Positions 15,363 to 59,049 of a stretch of DNA of 64,000 nucleotides are shown in pieces. Numbering within the stretch: position 1 is the stretch's first letter; each line of letters starts with the position of its first letter. Made by a program: the position numbers and the translations under genes. Under the pieces are notes generated by a model. It saw only the letters and a list, made by a program, of their open reading frames with translations. It was not told the DNA's origin and made no database searches. This DNA is from Candidatus Parcubacteria bacterium (lineage in GTDB: Bacteria; Patescibacteriota; Patescibacteriia; UBA1558; GWA2-36-10), in contig JABHSK010000001.1 in the NCBI GenBank assembly GCA_018669975.1, positions 24,394 to 88,393 of the forward strand. The letters are read 5' to 3'.

Positions 15363-15436
15363 TGGCTCGGGGACAGGGGCTCGAACCCCGATTGCCTGGA
15401 CCAGAACCAGGTGTCCTACCATTAGACGATCCCCGA
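15363..15436 (-). tRNA. tRNA-Gln (anticodon CUG).
   Basis: The reverse complement folds as a cloverleaf. Acceptor stem TCGGGGA/TCCCCGA, anticodon loop TTCTGGT, T-loop GGTTCGAGCCCC, encoded CCA. Confidence 0.85.
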
Positions 15437-32144: not shown

Positions 32145-32477
32145 AAATTGACTAAGATGATCGCCTCACCTTTGGTGAGGAGGAAAGTCCGAACACCATA
32201 AAAAGGGTAGTTGGTAACGCCAACCGTCCTGAGAGAAATCGAAGGATAGGACAAGTGCAACAGAAAGTATACCGCCTGCAAAGGTAAGGGTGAAAATGTG
32301 GGGTAAGAGCCCACACGTTTATGTGGTGACACATAGAATGAGGTAAACTTCTACCTGGTGAAAGACTAAGTAGGTTTCGTAATGCTACGAAACGGGTAAG
32401 TCGCTTGAGCTTATAAGCAATTGTAAGCCTAGATAGATGATCATCCTTAGACAGAATTCGGCTTATGAGGTCAATTT
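32145..32477 (+). ncRNA. rnpB: RNase P RNA, bacterial type A.
   Basis: Universal motifs GGAGGAAAGUCCG, GGUAACGCC, AGUGCAACAGAAAG, GGUAAGGGUGAAA.GUGGGGUAAGAGCCCAC, GCUUGAGC, CCUAGAUAGAUGA and ACAGAAUUCGGCUUAU. A P1 helix forms between aaattgac and gtcaattt. Confidence 0.9.
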
Positions 32478-32571
32478 AGACCTTTTTAGATACCCAAAAA
32501 TCTGTTTGACATCAATAAATATCTATGACAATATATTTAAAAGTTATTGTACACTAAAAAAGGAGAAATAA

Positions 32572-53361: not shown

Positions 53362-53501
53362 AGCTTTAAAATACCATAAATCAGCTTTTTTTTCAATCTA
53401 TGCCTAGTATTTTAAACAAATAAAAAAAGGGGCGAGATTTCTCTCGTCCCCCTGTTGATTTGAGCTTGTTTCACCTAATGGTGATTCAAACTACTGGGCA
53501 G

Positions 53502-54497
53502 CTACTTGCCACCCTTGCCGTTGAGGTTCATGAGCCAACCGGACCCGTCGGGCATGATATTGGCCGGCAAGGAGCCGTTCCACTTCTCAGCCGCGATCTT
53601 CTGGGCCTCGGCCTGGATCTTCTGGATATCCAGCTCACGGACCATGATGGCCGCGTCCTGTGCCCGAGCAAACTCCTCGGCCGCTTTACGTGAAGCAGTA
53701 GCCGTGGCTACGGTCTGCTTGTTGAGCTCATCCTGTGCCAGCTTATTCTGAGCTGCAGTCTGGACGCTGAGTTCAGCCAGGAACCGGTTGTTGATACCGG
53801 TCTGGATCTCCTCGTCCTCGTAGATCAGCCCCTCGGCGTAACCAAGGTTGTCGATAGTAATACCGGTCTCCTTGAAATGCTCACGAGTAGCGGCGTAGAC
53901 GCGATCAAAGATCTCGGCTTTGGCACCGCGACCGTCAACCAACTCCAGGGAGCCGAACTCCCGAGAGAGAATCGAGGTGACGTAACCACGCACGTTCTCA
54001 TCGACCACAGCCGACAAAGGCTTACCGGCGTACCAGTACAAGAAAGTCGCCGCGTCGTCCTCACGAACGAAGGAGGTGATATTGACGCCGATGGCGAAAC
54101 CGATGGACTCCTTGGACTCGACATGGATGGCTTCGTTGGCATTCGAGGTGCCGCTGGCGCTATCCTGCGTCCATTCACGAGTAACGGGTTTGCGATCAAC
54201 CTTGATCACGCGCACCGTCGGAATCCATTCAAAATTCCAACTGCGACGACCATTCTTCCTCTTACGCAGAGGAATAGTGACTCGCTTGGCCGCGACCTTG
54301 GCGTCCTCCAGGAAATCCACGGACATGAACTTGCCCTGGGTATCCATGTTGGCGCCTTCCATCGGCACCACGAAAGCAGTTTCGTTGGTGTCGATCTCTT
54401 CGACCACTTCGACTTCGGCCGGACCCCTGCAGCCAGTAAAGGCAAACATGGCGATCAGGCCAACGACGATCAGAGACAGGTACTTGAAATTCTTCAT
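53502..54497 (-). CDS. SPFH/band-7 (stomatin/flotillin-like) domain lipoprotein; high-GC gene.
   Basis: Lipobox AFTGC. The SPFH core (GFAIGVNITSFVRED...VRGYVTSILSREFG...ETGITIDNLGY) is followed by an Ala/Gln-rich coiled coil. SD GAGGAGG. About 57% GC. Confidence 0.6.
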   Translation of the reverse strand: MKNFKYLSLIVVGLIAMFAFTGCRGPAEVEVVEEIDTNETAFVVPMEGANMDTQGKFMSVDFLEDAKVAAKRVTIPLRKRKNGRRSWNFEWIPTVRVIKVDRKPVTREWTQDSASGTSNANEAIHVESKESIGFAIGVNITSFVREDDAATFLYWYAGKPLSAVVDENVRGYVTSILSREFGSLELVDGRGAKAEIFDRVYAATREHFKETGITIDNLGYAEGLIYEDEEIQTGINNRFLAELSVQTAAQNKLAQDELNKQTVATATASRKAAEEFARAQDAAIMVRELDIQKIQAEAQKIAAEKWNGSLPANIMPDGSGWLMNLNGKGGK

Positions 54498-54587
54498 TCT
54501 GTTTCCTCCTCAAGAGGTTCTGAAAGGTTTGAAACGGTTTTGAAACACGATATTCGTGAACAAATATACTAGCAGAGAAAAATAGAA

Positions 54588-54887
54588 CTACTCGTTACTA
54601 TCCGGGGCACTGTTGTACCTACCCAACTTGACCACATACGGAATCCAGGTCAAACCCAGCAGAATAAATCCTGCCCAGTTGATCATGCGTGGGATGGCAT
54701 GCAGTGCGACAGCGCGGCCGGCGACATAGTCGACATCACTGTTGTTGAGCTGCTTGACCGCAACTCCGGCCTCGATGGGACCCTGCGAAGCATTGTAGAC
54801 CTGAATGGTCACAATCCACAGAATCACAAAGATAATTGTGAAAATCATCCTGGCCTTGAAATTGGGCCTACCGATCATCTTACTCAT
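54588..54887 (-). CDS. Small two-TM membrane protein co-transcribed upstream of the SPFH gene (NfeD-position partner).
   Basis: The start is placed at the internal ATG (MSKMIGRP...) because SD AAGGAGG lies 6 nt upstream. Two hydrophobic helices. Confidence 0.5.
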   Translation of the reverse strand: MSKMIGRPNFKARMIFTIIFVILWIVTIQVYNASQGPIEAGVAVKQLNNSDVDYVAGRAVALHAIPRMINWAGFILLGLTWIPYVVKLGRYNSAPDSNE

Positions 54888-55102
54888 GTTTTGCCTCCTT
54901 AATGGCAAATGGTGATTGATTGGGAAACAACGATTTTACCGAATCTATTTTAAATCCTTGCGTTCAAGGCAGTAAAAAAATATACACGATAATAACAGAC
55001 TACATTAGCATAATACCTTGATTTTGTCAAGTATTAAGCTAAAAACCTTAAAAAAATAGGTAAATAAAAAGGACTCCAATTTGGAGCCCCTAATCTGATA
55101 GT

Positions 55103-55741
55103 TTAGCTATCAAGACTAAAGCTTTTCTCTGGCATACCAGGACAAGTGCCTCGCGGACCGAGAGTAGCCATAAAAACAAGGTTGCTCTGCCAGCTAATAT
55201 CACCCAATTCGGAAGCTATTTCCATAGCCATGGGAAGCAAATCAGCCTCTGGCAACACTGACAAAGTGATATGTGGTACAAACGTATCCATGGTCAATGG
55301 ATTACCCCATTTGGCCAAGTTTTTACGCCGAGCAGCACCTATATCAACTTCGCCTGTTAGACAGCCGGAATGTAAGCCAGTGATAAAATCCTGACGAAGT
55401 TCATTGATATCTTTGACCAGTTGGCGATGAATTCCCAACAACGCATCAGTCATATTTACATTCCAAAAAATAGCATTACCAGGATACTCACTGACACCAC
55501 TAAGGGTTAATTCGAGAGGCTTTTTACCCCAAAATGTTCTTTCCATGACAGAATCAACCGCAACTATATTTTCTACTGGAAAAGCAAATTGATGAATAGT
55601 AATGTGCGGAATAGCACTTTCCTCACTGAGGACTAAATCACTACCATGGGCAGCAATTTTTCTACTAACATCAATGGCTATTTGCCTGATTTCTTCAGGC
55701 GGAATAATCACTATGTTGCAGCTTAAAACTCTGGGAAACAT
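55103..55741 (-). CDS. 2H-phosphoesterase superfamily protein (LigT / 2'-5' RNA ligase / cyclic-phosphodiesterase-like).
   Basis: Two H-x-T/S-x motifs (HITIHQ and HITLSV) spaced as in LigT; SD GAGGTG. Confidence 0.6.
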   Translation of the reverse strand: MFPRVLSCNIVIIPPEEIRQIAIDVSRKIAAHGSDLVLSEESAIPHITIHQFAFPVENIVAVDSVMERTFWGKKPLELTLSGVSEYPGNAIFWNVNMTDALLGIHRQLVKDINELRQDFITGLHSGCLTGEVDIGAARRKNLAKWGNPLTMDTFVPHITLSVLPEADLLPMAMEIASELGDISWQSNLVFMATLGPRGTCPGMPEKSFSLDS

Positions 55742-55895
55742 GAGCCACCTCTTTCTTGTAGGGTTTAAGGTTCAGAAAAAATACATATTAAATTAACATA
55801 AAATACTTATTTATGTCAATGAGCATTGACAAATCATGAAACATGTGTTAGTTTCAAAATGTTTACAATTGAATATCTAACAATGAAGCAATGAA

Positions 55896-56007
55896 CGACT
55901 GTCTATATTTGGACGCTTGGATAGTCGGGAGCTAGTAGCGTAACCGGCATTGGCAATAAATTTAATTTGCTTATTTTGTCGGAGACGCCTACCTTAGGTG
56001 TTTTTTT
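55896..56007 (+). ncRNA. Structured RNA element, copy 1: conserved 51-nt core flanked by a covarying 5-bp helix, then an intrinsic terminator. Candidate riboswitch or sRNA.
   Basis: The core at 55901-55951 is identical to copy 2 except for a 5-nt block. Helix cgact(55896-900)/agtcg(55923-27). Terminator hairpin 55984-56002 plus T7. Confidence 0.5.
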
Positions 56008-56051
56008 AGTATAAGTACCTTATAAAATAAGTAAAATGATGAGGTGTTGAA

Positions 56052-56160
56052 CCATAGTCTATATTTGGACGCTTGGATTATGGGGAGCTAGTAGCGTAAC
56101 CGGCATTAAGCTGGTTTTAGGTACAAACAAAACACCTCATTTTTCGAAGGTGTTTTTTGA
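56052..56160 (+). ncRNA. Structured RNA element, copy 2: same core plus a P1/terminator switching platform.
   Basis: Core 56057-56107. Helix ccata(56052-56)/tatgg(56079-83). The stretch gaggtgtt (56041-48) is complementary to aacacctc (56131-38). That same stretch also pairs with aggtgtt (56148-54), which is followed by a T-run. Confidence 0.5.
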
Positions 56161-56184
56161 TAGTCACATCATGGAGGTGCAACA

Positions 56185-56625
56185 TTGGCTAGAATCGCTG
56201 TTTTTGATACGACCTATACTTCTATACGAACCATCTATTATGCCCTAGAGGGTGAAGGACATCAAGTAGTAACTAATGTTTTCCCAGAAAAAGTTTATGG
56301 GAAATTAGTTATGAAAATGGTAACTGACCCCCTTAGTTTGGTGACTAAAATTTTGACCCCCAGACTGGTTGATGGACAAGTCGTAAGACCTATCCCTGAT
56401 GTTTTCATCATAGATTTTCTTAATCTAGATGGTGAAAAAATAGCCAGCATACTCAAGCAAATACATAGTACTAGATCTGTACCAGTAATTGCCTTGAGTC
56501 ATAAAGGGAAAAATATAGATCGTCAAAAGTTACTTCAACTCTACGGCACTCACTATATTCCTAAACCATTTAATGTGTGGAATGTGGTTGATCACGTGGA
56601 AACTTTCCTAGGTGTCACTTGCTAG
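56185..56625 (+). CDS. Standalone receiver (REC/CheY-like) domain protein.
   Basis: TTG start with SD GGAGGTG. Beta3 acceptor Asp (VFIIDF), beta4 Ser (IALSH), beta5 Lys (IPKPF). Confidence 0.5.
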   Translation: MARIAVFDTTYTSIRTIYYALEGEGHQVVTNVFPEKVYGKLVMKMVTDPLSLVTKILTPRLVDGQVVRPIPDVFIIDFLNLDGEKIASILKQIHSTRSVPVIALSHKGKNIDRQKLLQLYGTHYIPKPFNVWNVVDHVETFLGVTC

Positions 56626-56667: not shown

Positions 56668-56733
56668 ATGGAAATTATGACGATCGTCATGGGTCTGTCC
56701 CTGATCGATCTCTTTTGGTGGCTGAGGAAATAA
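56668..56733 (+). CDS. 21-aa hydrophobic peptide MEIMTIVMGLSLIDLFWWLRK (type I toxin-like or small membrane peptide).
   Basis: Strong SD AAGGAGG 7 nt upstream. Single TM-length hydrophobic stretch with a basic C-terminus. A paralog lies at 56934-56999. Confidence 0.45.
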   Translation: MEIMTIVMGLSLIDLFWWLRK

Positions 56734-56835: not shown

Positions 56836-56878
56836 GGGACTCGTCACTGCATAATTCCCCCCAGTGCATACGAGTCCC
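56836..56878 (+). other. Conserved compound hairpin downstream of peptide 1 (copy A).
   Basis: gggactcgtcactgc...cagtgcatacgagtccc. A 13-nt block GACTCGTCACTGC is shared with copy B. Confidence 0.5.
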
Positions 56879-56933
56879 TTTCGATATTTACTGGAGGATG
56901 CTAATCGCTTATATTGAAAGTGAGGTGAAAACT

Positions 56934-56999
56934 ATGGCTTTCGAGGTTATTCTCATCGCTATTGGCGTTGCGGATATCTTCTGGTGGCTGCGTAAGTAG
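56934..56999 (+). CDS. 21-aa hydrophobic peptide MAFEVILIAIGVADIFWWLRK (paralog).
   Basis: SD GAGGTGA. Shares the C-terminal D[LI]FWWLRK with the first peptide. Followed by a conserved hairpin plus T7 terminator. Confidence 0.45.
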   Translation: MAFEVILIAIGVADIFWWLRK

Positions 57000-57068: not shown

Positions 57069-57117
57069 GAGACTCGTCACTGCCCATTTCCTCCAGTGCA
57101 TACGGGTCTCTTTTTTT
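57069..57117 (+). terminator. Conserved compound hairpin (copy B) plus T7: intrinsic terminator after peptide 2.
   Basis: gagactcgtcactgc...cagtgcatacgggtctc followed by ttttttt. Confidence 0.6.
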
Positions 57118-58065: not shown

Positions 58066-58704
58066 ATGAGTCCTGAGAGGATATCAGTAATAATTCAACA
58101 AAAGATTGAAGCCTATGATCCCAGTGGAAATCTTGACCACACTGCTCGCTTGATTCTTGCCCTAATGTCTCTTAGACACTCCCGAACTAAATTACATGTC
58201 GAACGTGTAGCCCTGATGGCTGAAGAAGTGGCCTCTGATATGGGTAAAGATGCTCGGCAAGCTTTTTTTAGCGGACTACTGCATGACATCGGCAAGCTAG
58301 TCTTGCCCTACCACCTATTTGCTGATCAATCAATCACTGATGATGAATTTTCTGAAATTACCAGCCACGCTGCAGCCGGACACAAAGTCCTAGAACCATT
58401 CCATCTCTATACCGCGCTAGTAGCTGGCATTCATCATCGTGCTCAAGACCGTGGCTACGGTCTAACACTAACAGACTTCCCAGAAGACATGCCTTTGTCG
58501 CAGGTCAAGAAAGTTCTCAATATTGCCGTCATAGTCGGCGTCTGTGATTTTATTGATGCCTGGCAAAACCGTGGTGACACCCTCCGTGATGGACGTAAAA
58601 AAACAGACCTTGATTTACGCAGTCTGCTTCTGGAAAAATATCCCGATGATAGCCAAGTTGTTGACTTGGCCCTAGTAGCTGCGGACAAAGTCCGTACCAT
58701 CTGA
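58066..58704 (+). CDS. HD-domain phosphohydrolase, HD-GYP-like (divergent: HDIGK ... HHRAQDRGYG).
   Basis: HD motif LLHDIGKLVLPYHL and a second metal-binding block GIHHRAQDRGYG, which resembles the HHExxDGxGYP block of c-di-GMP HD-GYP phosphodiesterases. SD AAGGAGG. About 50% GC. Confidence 0.5.
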   Translation: MSPERISVIIQQKIEAYDPSGNLDHTARLILALMSLRHSRTKLHVERVALMAEEVASDMGKDARQAFFSGLLHDIGKLVLPYHLFADQSITDDEFSEITSHAAAGHKVLEPFHLYTALVAGIHHRAQDRGYGLTLTDFPEDMPLSQVKKVLNIAVIVGVCDFIDAWQNRGDTLRDGRKKTDLDLRSLLLEKYPDDSQVVDLALVAADKVRTI

Positions 58705-58975: not shown

Positions 58976-59049
58976 TGGCTCGGGGACAGGGGCTCGAACC
59001 CCGATTGCCTGGACCAAAACCAGGTGTCCTACCATTAGACGATCCCCGA
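58976..59049 (-). tRNA. tRNA-Gln (anticodon UUG). Identical to the copy at 15363-15436 except for anticodon position 34.
   Basis: Same 74-nt sequence with ccaGaacc changed to ccaAaacc on the plus strand, giving anticodon loop TTTTGGT. Confidence 0.85.

What the first reader, a model, noticed from the sequence alone, without database searches (positions are those of the whole stretch)
55881..56184. Tandem pseudoknotted RNA motif with covariation and riboswitch-like expression platforms upstream of a receiver-domain gene
Two copies of a 51-nt core (55901-55951 and 56057-56107) are identical at 46 of 51 positions. The only divergent 5-nt block (agtcg versus tatgg) is exactly complementary in each copy to the 5 nt just 5' of the core (cgact versus ccata). 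That gives three compensatory double substitutions preserving one helix, which is strong evidence that RNA structure is under selection. A second potential helix (acgc/gcgt) interleaves with the first, so the core would be a pseudoknot. Each copy is followed by its own hairpin plus U-tract terminator. In copy 2 an 8-nt segment (aacacctc, 56131-38) can pair with either the 5' arm gaggtgtt (56041-48) or the terminator 3' arm aggtgtt (56148-54). Mutually exclusive P1 and terminator helices like these are the classic switching logic of a transcriptional riboswitch. The 3' half of the core (CUAGUAGCGUAACCGGC) resembles, from memory, the conserved 3' region of c-di-GMP-II aptamers (…UAGUAGUGCAACCGAC…). 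The apparent pseudoknot difference (GCAC/GUGC versus ACGC/GCGU) would be compensatory. This recollection is uncertain. The element sits in a GC-rich acquired segment immediately upstream of a REC-like gene, and an HD-GYP-like gene lies 2 kb downstream. That fits second-messenger control thematically. It could equally be a new riboswitch class or a pair of small RNAs.
Basis: partly seen in the sequence, partly recalled or inferred. Interest (0 to 1): 0.88.

Follow-up and report, generated by a model that had tools for sequence, protein, structure and literature searches.

The report
Tandem c-di-GMP-II riboswitches, ordinary class
The two repeated RNA motifs are a back-to-back pair of already-known cyclic-di-GMP (class II) riboswitches, each with its own terminator, that most likely switch off a small receiver-domain gene when c-di-GMP is high. 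This is a routine database match in an unusual (probably Patescibacteria) host.

Summary
Rfam places both copies in the c-di-GMP-II riboswitch family (RF01786): 55875-55958 at 67.3 bits and 56031-56114 at 62.4 bits, against a gathering score of 53.5.

In 26 related aptamers, helices P1, P2 and P3 covary strongly. The pseudoknot (ACGC/GCGU) is invariant within the clade and differs from the family consensus (GCAC/GUGC) by two compensatory pairs.

Each aptamer has its own hairpin plus U-tract. In both units the terminator's 5' arm can instead pair with a part of the aptamer, so I predict both are OFF switches.

The two copies are old paralogues. Each is 90-94% identical to its positional counterpart in other species but only 81% identical to its neighbour.

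Tandem c-di-GMP-II riboswitches are already published (59 doublets, 9 triplets; PMC9481103). What is mildly new:
- the probable host lineage (Patescibacteria-like metagenomic genomes);
- the predicted OFF logic (the characterised C. difficile class II switches are ON);
- the regulated operon, an orphan receiver domain plus conserved ~21-aa FWWLRK mini-peptides.

Verdict: a new member of a known kind, of low-to-moderate interest.

The parts
55826..55854 (+). Sigma-70-type promoter: -35 TTGACA (55826-31), 17-nt spacer, -10 TAGTTT (55849-54). The inferred transcription start is about 55861.
   Evidence: TTGACA, a 17-nt spacer and TAnnnT are conserved at the same distance from aptamer 1 in all six orthologous leaders. 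It was not listed by the consensus scan because the -10 matches only 3 of 6. The start site is inferred.
55875..55958 (+). c-di-GMP-II aptamer 1. P1 is 55881-85/55948-52, P2 is 55887-89/55931-33, P3 is 55896-903/55920-27, and the pseudoknot is ACGC 55913-16 with GCGU 55938-41.
   Evidence: Rfam RF01786: 67.3 bits (gathering score 53.5), E 6.6e-13, full model 1-84. Helix covariation is shown.
55935..55992 (+). Anti-terminator of unit 1. The aptamer 3' tail (GUAGCGU and CCGGCA) pairs with UGUCGG and ACGCCUAC, enclosing a small AAUAA/UUAUU hairpin.
   Evidence: It is part of the unconstrained MFE of the leader and scores -20.5 kcal/mol as a stem-loop. The same pairing is possible in L009, L015 and L017. 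L085 unit 1 has a perfect GGUUACGCU:AGCGUAACC version. Support from the shuffle test is weak (z -0.2 to -1.4).
55982..56007 (+). Intrinsic terminator 1: stem GAGACGCCUA/UAGGUGUUUU, loop CCU, U7 run.
   Evidence: -10.3 kcal/mol. It forms when the aptamer is constrained. A hairpin plus U-run follows nearly all of the 26 related units. It was not flagged by the simple scan.
56031..56114 (+). c-di-GMP-II aptamer 2. P1 is 56037-41/56104-08, P2 is 56043-45/56087-89, P3 is 56052-59/56076-83, and the pseudoknot is 56069-72 with 56094-97.
   Evidence: Rfam RF01786: 62.4 bits (gathering score 53.5), E 1.6e-11, full model.
56038..56141 (+). Anti-terminator of unit 2. The aptamer 5' strand (A)UGAGGUGUU(U) at 56038-48 pairs with AAACACCUCAU at 56131-41. 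This is incompatible with P1 and P2.
   Evidence: 10-11 bp perfect helix (I7), -16.2 kcal/mol against -10.8 for the terminator pairing. It is the MFE of unit 2. Both strands change together in orthologues: GAGAUGUU/AACAUCUC, GAGGCG/CGCCUC, GAGACGUU/AACGUGUC (z down to -5.6).
56129..56158 (+). Intrinsic terminator 2: AAAACACCU(C)/(G)AGGUGUUUU plus a U6 run.
   Evidence: I10; -8.8 kcal/mol. It forms when aptamer 2 is constrained.
56173..56625 (+). Shine-Dalgarno GGAGGUG (56173-79) and a 146-aa stand-alone receiver-domain gene (TTG start at 56185, stop at 56623-25).
   Evidence: Pfam Response_reg gives 24.9 bits, below the cut-off of 30.2. The AlphaFold model has pLDDT 83.9. All top Foldseek PDB hits are receiver domains with TM about 0.8. 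D8, D77, S105 and K127 are invariant. Orthologues lie downstream of the same riboswitch in every relative.
56668..56733 (+). Mini-ORF 1, MEIMTIVMGLSLIDLFWWLRK, probably co-transcribed with the receiver gene.
   Evidence: It is conserved directly after the receiver gene in L015, L017, L011, L014, L100 and L036. An AAAGGAGG ribosome-binding site lies upstream.
56934..56999 (+). Mini-ORF 2 (paralogue), MAFEVILIAIGVADIFWWLRK. It is followed by a hairpin plus U-run (about 57071-57110) that probably ends the operon.

Best explanation
The region is the 5' leader of a small operon and holds two complete c-di-GMP-II (Rfam RF01786) riboswitches in series. Each has an aptamer and its own intrinsic terminator.

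Transcription starts about 15 nt upstream of aptamer 1, from a conserved TTGACA-17-TAGTTT promoter.

In each unit the 5' arm of the terminator can pair with a piece of the aptamer instead. In unit 1 that piece is the aptamer's 3' tail (pseudoknot strand, ACCGGC and the P1 3' strand). In unit 2 it is the aptamer's 5' strand (the P1 and P2 5' halves).

Without ligand the more stable anti-terminator forms and RNA polymerase reads through. When c-di-GMP locks the aptamer, those segments are sequestered, the terminator hairpin forms and transcription stops. Both units are therefore OFF switches.

Two independent checkpoints for the same ligand multiply. This gives a steeper, tighter response, the 'pseudo-cooperative' tandem architecture. 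The operon (an orphan receiver-domain protein plus one or two FWWLRK mini-peptides) would be expressed only at low c-di-GMP.

Shown here: family membership, helices, terminators, alternative pairings and conservation. Inferred: c-di-GMP as the ligand, the OFF direction, the transcription start and the dose-response behaviour. Confidence is about 0.93 for 'tandem c-di-GMP-II riboswitches' and about 0.7 for 'both OFF'. The overall figure given is a blend of the two.
For: - Both copies exceed the Rfam gathering score for c-di-GMP-II with full-length matches, and they outscore the clan's variant families.
- In 26 related aptamers, 95.4% of pair cells are standard pairs and 12 of 20 pairs show double changes. 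No shuffle in 500 reached the observed values, and slid controls paired at 26-41%.
- All highly conserved consensus nucleotides are kept. The pseudoknot is kept through two compensatory changes relative to the consensus.
- The riboswitch lies upstream of receiver-gene orthologues in every relative examined, down to 26-33% protein identity. It is tandem in most of them: the window, L009, L015, L017, L011 (second copy below the gathering score) and L085. L093 and L100 also carry a tandem, but there it directly precedes a 56-67-aa ORF, with the receiver homologue (L100) further downstream.
- Unit 1 copies are orthologous to each other, and so are unit 2 copies (90-94% against 81%). Both have therefore been maintained since before these species diverged.
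- With the aptamer constrained, both terminators form. Unconstrained, both anti-terminators form. Energies are given.
- The unit-2-type anti-terminator covaries across about 14 units.
- Tandem c-di-GMP-II riboswitches with separate expression platforms are a published architecture (PMC9481103).
Against: - No binding or transcription data exist.
- The simple terminator scan flagged neither hairpin, and both are modest (-10.3 and -8.8 kcal/mol).
- The unit 1 anti-terminator is bipartite with an internal loop, and it is not clearly better than shuffled arms (z -0.2 to -1.4).
- The characterised C. difficile class II switches are ON switches (PMC11477304), so OFF logic departs from the best-studied examples.
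- Nearest-neighbour folding ignores the pseudoknot, tertiary contacts and ligand energy. The balance between the two states therefore cannot be quantified.
- No GGDEF or EAL gene lies in the 64-kb window, so c-di-GMP synthesis in this organism is unverified.
Confidence: 0.78

Rival explanations
1. Same aptamers, but ON switches. The long helix 56039-48/56131-40 would be an extended P1 stabilised by ligand, so that c-di-GMP prevents the terminator and turns the operon on, as in C. difficile class II riboswitches.
For: The class II switches characterised in C. difficile are ON. It is mutually exclusive with terminator 2.
Against: In the covariance-model alignment, 56037-45 already has partners inside the 84-nt aptamer: P1 with 56104-08 and P2 with 56087-89. 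Those pairs covary in 26 sequences. The long helix therefore destroys the ligand-binding fold rather than extending it. With the aptamer constrained, the terminators form. Unit 1 has the classical OFF arrangement, in which the aptamer 3' strand pairs with the terminator 5' arm.
Confidence: 0.12
2. The aptamers belong to the c-di-GMP-II fold but sense a different ligand, for example another cyclic dinucleotide. This would parallel the GEMM-I variants that bind cGAMP or the orphan c-di-GMP-II-GAG and -GCG variant families.
For: The pseudoknot sequence differs from the family consensus. Variant families exist in the same Rfam clan and also matched, at lower scores. No diguanylate cyclase was seen in the window.
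Against: The parent model outscored the variants for every aptamer. All non-pseudoknot nucleotides that are highly conserved in the consensus are retained and invariant. The ACGC/GCGU version occurs in at least 119 genome stretches across Clostridia, Saccharibacteria and Actinomycetota, so it is a common subtype and not a rare variant. I could not retrieve the list of ligand-contacting nucleotides, so those positions were not checked individually.
Confidence: 0.06
3. One copy is a decaying or redundant product of a recent duplication, and only one riboswitch is functional. The apparent compensatory changes would then be chance.
For: Some relatives have a single aptamer (L014, L030, L117, L036). 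The second aptamer of L011 falls below the gathering score.
Against: Each copy is 90-94% identical to its positional orthologue in three other species whose receiver proteins are only 67-73% identical to the window's. The two copies are only 81% identical to each other. Both keep full-length model matches, their own terminators and their own covarying anti-terminators.
Confidence: 0.04
4. The prematurely terminated leader transcripts (about 147 nt and about 300 nt) act in trans as small RNAs, in addition to or instead of controlling the operon in cis.
For: Terminated riboswitch transcripts would accumulate at high ligand.
Against: No target complementarity was sought or found. The cis arrangement directly upstream of the same gene family is conserved in all relatives, which is enough to explain the conservation.
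Confidence: 0.03

Closest known systems
c-di-GMP-II riboswitch (Rfam RF01786; Lee et al. 2010, from my own knowledge)
   Same: Full-length covariance-model matches above the gathering score. Same P1/P2/P3 plus pseudoknot architecture. Same conserved nucleotides: GA, UGAA, UAUUUGG, GGAG, AGU, AACCG.
   Different: The pseudoknot reads ACGC/GCGU instead of the consensus GCAC/GUGC. This is compensatory and is a common subtype. The host is probably Patescibacteria rather than Clostridia.
Tandem 'pseudo-cooperative' riboswitches, including the published c-di-GMP-II doublets and triplets (Sherlock et al. 2022, PMC9481103) and the tandem TPP riboswitches cited there
   Same: Two complete same-class riboswitches, each with its own terminator, with no ORF between them and a 72-nt gap, upstream of one operon.
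   Different: Most published c-di-GMP-II tandems precede a surface-anchor protein gene (COG4932) in Paraclostridium. Here the target is an orphan receiver domain plus mini-peptides, and the two units use different anti-terminator designs.
C. difficile class II c-di-GMP riboswitches, including the one upstream of cmrRST (a signal-transduction operon with two response regulators)
   Same: Same aptamer class. Transcription-termination control. One C. difficile example also controls response-regulator genes.
   Different: Those are ON switches. The platforms here are predicted to be OFF.
Triple-tandem c-di-GMP-I riboswitch Bc3-5 of Bacillus thuringiensis (PMC4759541)
   Same: Several complete c-di-GMP riboswitches in series in one 5' UTR.
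   Different: It is a different aptamer class (GEMM-I) with a different target gene.

Membership tests
c-di-GMP-II riboswitch (RF01786) | Covariance-model score at or above the curated gathering score, over the full-length model | tested here: met
   67.3 and 62.4 bits against 53.5, model positions 1-84 of 84 for both.
c-di-GMP-II riboswitch (RF01786) | Nested helices P1, P2 and P3 supported by covariation | tested here: met
   In 26 related aptamers, P3 has 8 of 8 pairs with double changes, P2 has 2 of 3 and P1 has 2 of 5. 95.4% of cells are paired, 0 of 500 shuffles reach this, and slid controls pair at 26-41%.
c-di-GMP-II riboswitch (RF01786) | Pseudoknot between the P3 loop and the 3' tail | tested here: met
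   ACGC (55913-16, 56069-72) is complementary to GCGU (55938-41, 56094-97). Relative to the consensus GCAC/GUGC, two pairs are changed on both sides. The pseudoknot is invariant within the clade, so there is no internal covariation.
c-di-GMP-II riboswitch (RF01786) | Highly conserved unpaired nucleotides of the consensus (G11 A12, UGAA, UAUuUGG, GGAG, AGU, AACCG) | tested here: met
   All are present in both copies and invariant across the 26 relatives. The individual ligand-contacting positions from the crystal structure could not be checked because the paper is not held.
c-di-GMP-II riboswitch (RF01786) | Parent family rather than the altered-specificity variants of the same clan (c-di-GMP-II-GAG, -GCG) | tested here: met
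   Overlapping matches to other families of clan CL00127 scored lower and were suppressed for every aptamer. Their actual scores are not shown by the tool.
c-di-GMP-II riboswitch (RF01786) | Selective binding of c-di-GMP | not testable with these tools
   This needs in-line probing, ITC or a similar binding assay.
Tandem pseudo-cooperative riboswitch arrangement | Two complete riboswitches of one class, no intervening ORF, gap under 300 nt, upstream of one ORF | tested here: met
   The aptamers end at 55958 and start at 56031, a 72-nt gap. No ORF of 50 aa or more lies between them on the + strand. The criteria are from PMC9481103.
Tandem pseudo-cooperative riboswitch arrangement | Each aptamer has its own expression platform (an intrinsic terminator between the aptamers and another after the second) | tested here: met
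   Hairpin plus U7 at 55982-56007 and hairpin plus U6 at 56129-56158. The equivalents are conserved in relatives. Caveat: the simple scan did not list them.
Tandem pseudo-cooperative riboswitch arrangement | Independent action of the two units, giving a steeper dose-response | not testable with these tools
   This needs transcription-termination titrations on single and double constructs.
Response-regulator receiver (REC) domain (the regulated gene) | Pfam PF00072 match at the gathering score | tested here: inconclusive
   The window protein scores 24.9 bits against a cut-off of 30.2 and matches only residues 71-138. The distant orthologue in L117 reaches 33.9 bits.
Response-regulator receiver (REC) domain (the regulated gene) | Alternating beta/alpha CheY-like fold with the phospho-acceptor Asp, conserved Ser/Thr and Lys | tested here: met
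   The model has pLDDT 83.9 and pTM 0.80. The top 50 PDB matches are receiver domains, with TM up to 0.83. D77 (IIDF), S105 and K127 (KPF) are invariant. Only one N-terminal acidic residue (D8) is present instead of the usual pair, and there is a roughly 25-residue beta-hairpin insertion.

The most novel reading that the evidence does not exclude
In a Patescibacteria-like lineage with a small genome, a conserved pair of c-di-GMP-II riboswitches works as a digital OFF gate on a lineage-specific module: an orphan receiver domain with a beta-hairpin insertion plus FWWLRK membrane mini-peptides. This would be an undescribed c-di-GMP output pathway, and direct evidence that riboswitch-based c-di-GMP signalling operates in candidate-phyla-radiation bacteria. 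The same aptamer subtype also precedes large, possibly surface, proteins in Saccharibacteria.
Probability: 0.35. Interest if true: 0.45.

Novelty: new member of a known kind. Interest (0 to 1): 0.25.

Why it matters
For riboswitch biology this adds little. The class, its pseudoknot and its tandem use are all catalogued.

The modest value lies in three points:
- It shows that c-di-GMP-II riboswitches, often in tandem, are conserved in genomes labelled Patescibacteria, Parcubacteria and Saccharibacteria. The held literature has no report on c-di-GMP sensing in these groups.
- It gives a clean, covariation-supported example of class II aptamers wired as OFF switches, with two different anti-terminator designs in one leader.
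- It links c-di-GMP to an uncharacterised orphan receiver and mini-peptide operon, which offers a handle on the function of those genes.

Tried and rejected
- I first suspected a cyanobacterium, on the basis of 34% GC, samples named HAWL and a weak Yfr10 hit. I rejected this. The window encodes an [FeFe] hydrogenase, PBP2, MreBC and SecDF but no photosynthesis genes. The syntenic genome contigs are labelled Patescibacteria, Parcubacteria or Komeilibacteria. Three syntenic MAGs are labelled 'uncultured Gammaproteobacteria', so the assignment is only probable.
- The new-riboswitch-class reading is rejected by Rfam.
- The consensus terminator and promoter scans missed both terminators and the conserved promoter. 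I relied on folding and conservation instead.
- I could not obtain the c-di-GMP-II crystal-structure paper to list ligand contacts. A search for the variant-family definitions gave nothing usable.
- A shuffle test of complementarity between the terminator 5' arm and the aptamer gave clear support for unit-2-type platforms but not for unit-1-type platforms.
- The script picked the wrong U-run for W_2 and failed on L093_2 and L070_b. W_2 was recomputed.
- A group I intron in a Saccharibacteria locus (L034) is 2.5 kb from the aptamer there, so it is not the C. difficile-type allosteric ribozyme arrangement.
- Not used: the metagenome contigs and viral scans, and a custom covariance model. The question was already settled.
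Full report
**Observation.**
The three differences lie in the block AGTCG/TATGG. In each copy that block is exactly complementary to the five bases before the core (CGACT/CCATA), so three base pairs are changed on both sides. ACGC lies in the loop closed by that helix and GCGT lies 3' of it, which is a pseudoknot topology. The repeat finder extends the duplicated unit to 69 nt (55883-55951 and 56039-56107, 86% identity). It also confirms the inverted repeats cited for copy 2: 56039-48 with 56131-40 (10 nt, perfect) and 56129-37 with 56148-56 (9 nt, perfect).

**Identity.**
A scan of the whole window against Rfam 15 at gathering thresholds returns two full-length matches to the c-di-GMP-II riboswitch aptamer (RF01786). 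They are 55875-55958 (67.3 bits, E 6.6e-13) and 56031-56114 (62.4 bits, E 1.6e-11), against a gathering score of 53.5. Lower-scoring overlapping matches to other families of the same clan were suppressed, both here and in a permissive local scan. That clan holds the altered-specificity variants -GAG and -GCG, so the parent family fits best.

Every other highly conserved consensus nucleotide is present.

**Relatives and covariation.**
The downstream 146-aa protein has only six homologue clusters in the 5.8-billion-protein collection, at 62-99% identity. I fetched their contigs. I also scanned the genome collection for the aptamer subtype with the pattern TGGACGCTT-N14-20-AGTAGCGTAACCG. That scan gave at least 119 stretches in Clostridia, Saccharibacteria, other Patescibacteria, Actinomycetota and others, so this pseudoknot version is a common subtype.

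BLAST identified eight genome loci syntenic with the window. Six of them, plus two non-syntenic loci (L056, L068), encode receiver homologues at 26-56% identity.

Rfam finds c-di-GMP-II aptamers in every one of the window-related loci scanned:
- Two in tandem: the window species, L009, L015, L017, L060, L093, L100 and L085.
- One above threshold plus a recognisable second copy below it: L011.
- A single aptamer: L014, L030, L117 and L036.

An alignment of 26 of these aptamers was scored against the family structure. 95.4% of cells are standard pairs, against 81.8% for shuffles and 26-41% for slid controls. Twelve of 20 pairs have changes on both sides, and no shuffle in 500 reached the observed covariation score. 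All eight P3 pairs covary. The pseudoknot is invariant in this clade.

**Age of the duplication.**
Window aptamer 1 is 94%, 94% and 90% identical to aptamer 1 of L009, L015 and L017, but only 81% identical to window aptamer 2. Window aptamer 2 is 91-93% identical to the second aptamers of those species. Their receiver proteins are only 67-73% identical to the window's. The duplication therefore predates these species, and both copies have been kept.

**Anatomy of the leader.**
All orthologous leaders share TTGACA, a 17-nt spacer and TAnnnT at a fixed distance upstream of aptamer 1. In the window these are at 55826-31 and 55849-54, which implies a start near 55861 (inferred).

Aptamer 1 is followed by a hairpin, GAGACGCCUA/UAGGUGUUUU, with a U7 run (55982-56007, -10.3 kcal/mol). 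Aptamer 2 is followed by AAAACACCU(C)/(G)AGGUGUUUU with a U6 run (56129-56158, -8.8 kcal/mol). A GGAGGUG Shine-Dalgarno sequence at 56173-79 precedes the TTG start at 56185. The simple consensus scan listed neither terminator nor the promoter. Their support comes from folding and from the presence of a hairpin plus U-run after nearly all of the 26 related units.

**Switching logic.**
- Unit 2. The aptamer's 5' strand (56038-48) supplies the 5' halves of P1 and P2. It is perfectly complementary over 10-11 nt to 56131-41, which is also the 5' arm of terminator 2. The long-range helix scores -16.2 kcal/mol against -10.8 for the terminator pairing, and it is the unconstrained minimum-energy fold.
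- Unit 1. The aptamer's 3' tail (GUAGCGU, CCGGCA) pairs with UGUCGG and ACGCCUAC. This forms a -20.5 kcal/mol stem-loop (55935-55992) that consumes the 5' arm of terminator 1, and it too is part of the unconstrained minimum.
- When P1, P2 and P3 are forced and the pseudoknot strands are blocked, mimicking the ligand-bound aptamer, both terminators form.

Both units should therefore terminate when ligand is bound, which makes them OFF switches.

Across relatives, the unit-2-type anti-terminator changes on both strands together (GAGGUGUU/AACACCUC, GAGAUGUU/AACAUCUC, GAGGCG/CGCCUC, GAGACGUU/AACGUGUC). It beats shuffled arms with z down to -5.6. The unit-1-type pairing is conserved, and in L085 it becomes a perfect 9-bp GGUUACGCU:AGCGUAACC helix. 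It is not clearly better than shuffles, however (z -0.2 to -1.4), so that half of the model is weaker.

**What is regulated.**
The 146-aa product matches Pfam Response_reg only below threshold. An AlphaFold model (pLDDT 83.9, pTM 0.80) matches solved receiver domains exclusively among the top 50 hits, with TM up to 0.83. The phospho-acceptor Asp (D77), S105 and K127 are invariant. Only one of the usual two N-terminal acidic residues is present, and there is a beta-hairpin insertion. More distant orthologues downstream of the same riboswitch are plain 125-136-aa receivers, and one of them passes the Pfam threshold.

Directly after the receiver gene lies a conserved ~21-aa hydrophobic ORF ending in FWWLRK. 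It is present in eight related loci and duplicated in the window (56668-56733 and 56934-56999). The operon probably ends at the hairpin plus U-run near 57071-57110.

A 212-aa HD-domain protein with an HHxxxDxxGYG motif (HD-GYP-like) lies at 58066-58704. It sits beyond a convergent gene, so it is not in the operon.

**Host.**
The window is 34% GC and encodes an [FeFe] hydrogenase, NuoF-like protein, PBP2, MreB/C, MurJ, Ddl, SecDF, RecJ and LepA. It has no photosynthesis or LPS genes among those scanned. Of the syntenic genome contigs, five are labelled Patescibacteria group, Candidatus Parcubacteria or Candidatus Komeilibacteria, and three are labelled 'uncultured Gammaproteobacteria'. I take Patescibacteria as probable, not proven.

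The riboswitch and receiver unit is syntenic everywhere, so it is not itself 'acquired'.

**Comparison with what is known.**
Tandem riboswitches of one class, each with its own terminator, are the 'pseudo-cooperative' architecture. A 2022 survey reports 59 doublets and 9 triplets of c-di-GMP-II, mostly upstream of a surface-anchor gene in Paraclostridium (PMC9481103). In C. difficile, class II riboswitches are ON switches, and one of them controls the cmrRST signal-transduction operon (PMC11477304).

The present case has the same class and the same architecture. It differs in predicted sign, in target genes and in probable host. I found no paper in the held library on c-di-GMP riboswitches in Patescibacteria. 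That is an absence in this library only.

**Verdict.**
It is a new member of a known kind, interest about 0.25. Confidence is about 0.93 that these are c-di-GMP-II aptamers in a two-riboswitch tandem, and about 0.7 that both act as OFF switches.

Noticed in passing
window 56668-56733 and 56934-56999; hairpins about 56838-56880 and 57071-57110: Two paralogous ~21-aa hydrophobic ORFs end in FWWLRK (MEIMTIVMGLSLIDLFWWLRK and MAFEVILIAIGVADIFWWLRK). Each is followed by a long hairpin sharing GACUCGUCACUGC...CAGUGCAUACGrGUC. The peptide is conserved right after the receiver gene in L009, L015, L017, L011, L014, L100 and L036. There is no Rfam match, and the function is unknown.
   Followed up: partly
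window 55814-55831: A palindrome, TGTCAATG-AG-CATTGACA, overlaps the -35 box. It reads TTGACA on both strands, which suggests back-to-back divergent promoters for the riboswitch operon and the LigT-like gene (55103-55741, minus strand), or an operator. It is conserved in L009, L015 and L017, and absent where the LigT gene is absent.
   Followed up: partly
window 56013-56024, and equivalent sites in relatives: A conserved GU(A/U)C(C/U)UU motif lies 10-15 nt after the first terminator's U-run in nearly all related leaders. It is complementary to the unit 2 5' strand, to the terminator 3' arms and to the Shine-Dalgarno sequence. In single-riboswitch loci (L117, L070) it sits just before AAGGAGG and could sequester it. 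It may be a translational layer of control. Unexplained.
   Followed up: no
window 58066-58704 (+): A 212-aa HD-domain protein with HDIGK and HHRAQDRGYG motifs (HD-GYP-like, with GYG in place of GYP). It is syntenic with the riboswitch locus in close relatives and is a candidate c-di-GMP phosphodiesterase.
   Followed up: partly
window 15366-15436 (-) and 58979-59049 (-): Two tRNA genes 43 kb apart differ by a single base in the anticodon (CUG and UUG, both Gln by the standard code).
   Followed up: no
L011 3852-3936: The second aptamer of this relative falls below the Rfam gathering score. It has a 2-nt insertion in the P2 3' strand and one extra nucleotide in the P3 loop. It still keeps the pseudoknot, the AACCG tail, its own terminator and a perfectly compensated anti-terminator (AUGAGAUGUU/AACAUCUCAU).
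   Followed up: partly
L020, L024, L037, L077, L102, L129 and other Saccharibacteria MAG loci: The same aptamer subtype precedes large ORFs (about 490-970 aa) in many Saccharibacteria genomes. Two Saccharimonadia loci have shorter ORFs (230-294 aa) with signal-peptide-like N-termini. This suggests a wider c-di-GMP riboswitch regulon in Patescibacteria.
   Followed up: no
L034 6333-6647 (-) and 3723-3806 (-): A group I intron lies 2.5 kb upstream of a c-di-GMP-II aptamer in a Saccharibacteria MAG. They are not adjacent, so this is not the C. difficile-type allosteric ribozyme.
   Followed up: no
window 53500-55750: A GC-rich block (0.44 against a background of 0.34) holds a 331-aa ORF and a 106-aa ORF with no Pfam match, plus a LigT/2'-5' RNA ligase-like gene. 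It is present only in the window, L009, L015 and L017 lineages, between conserved neighbours, so it is probably a lineage-specific insertion.
   Followed up: partly
window 32145-32481 (+): Bacterial RNase P RNA, class A, 250.8 bits.
   Followed up: no
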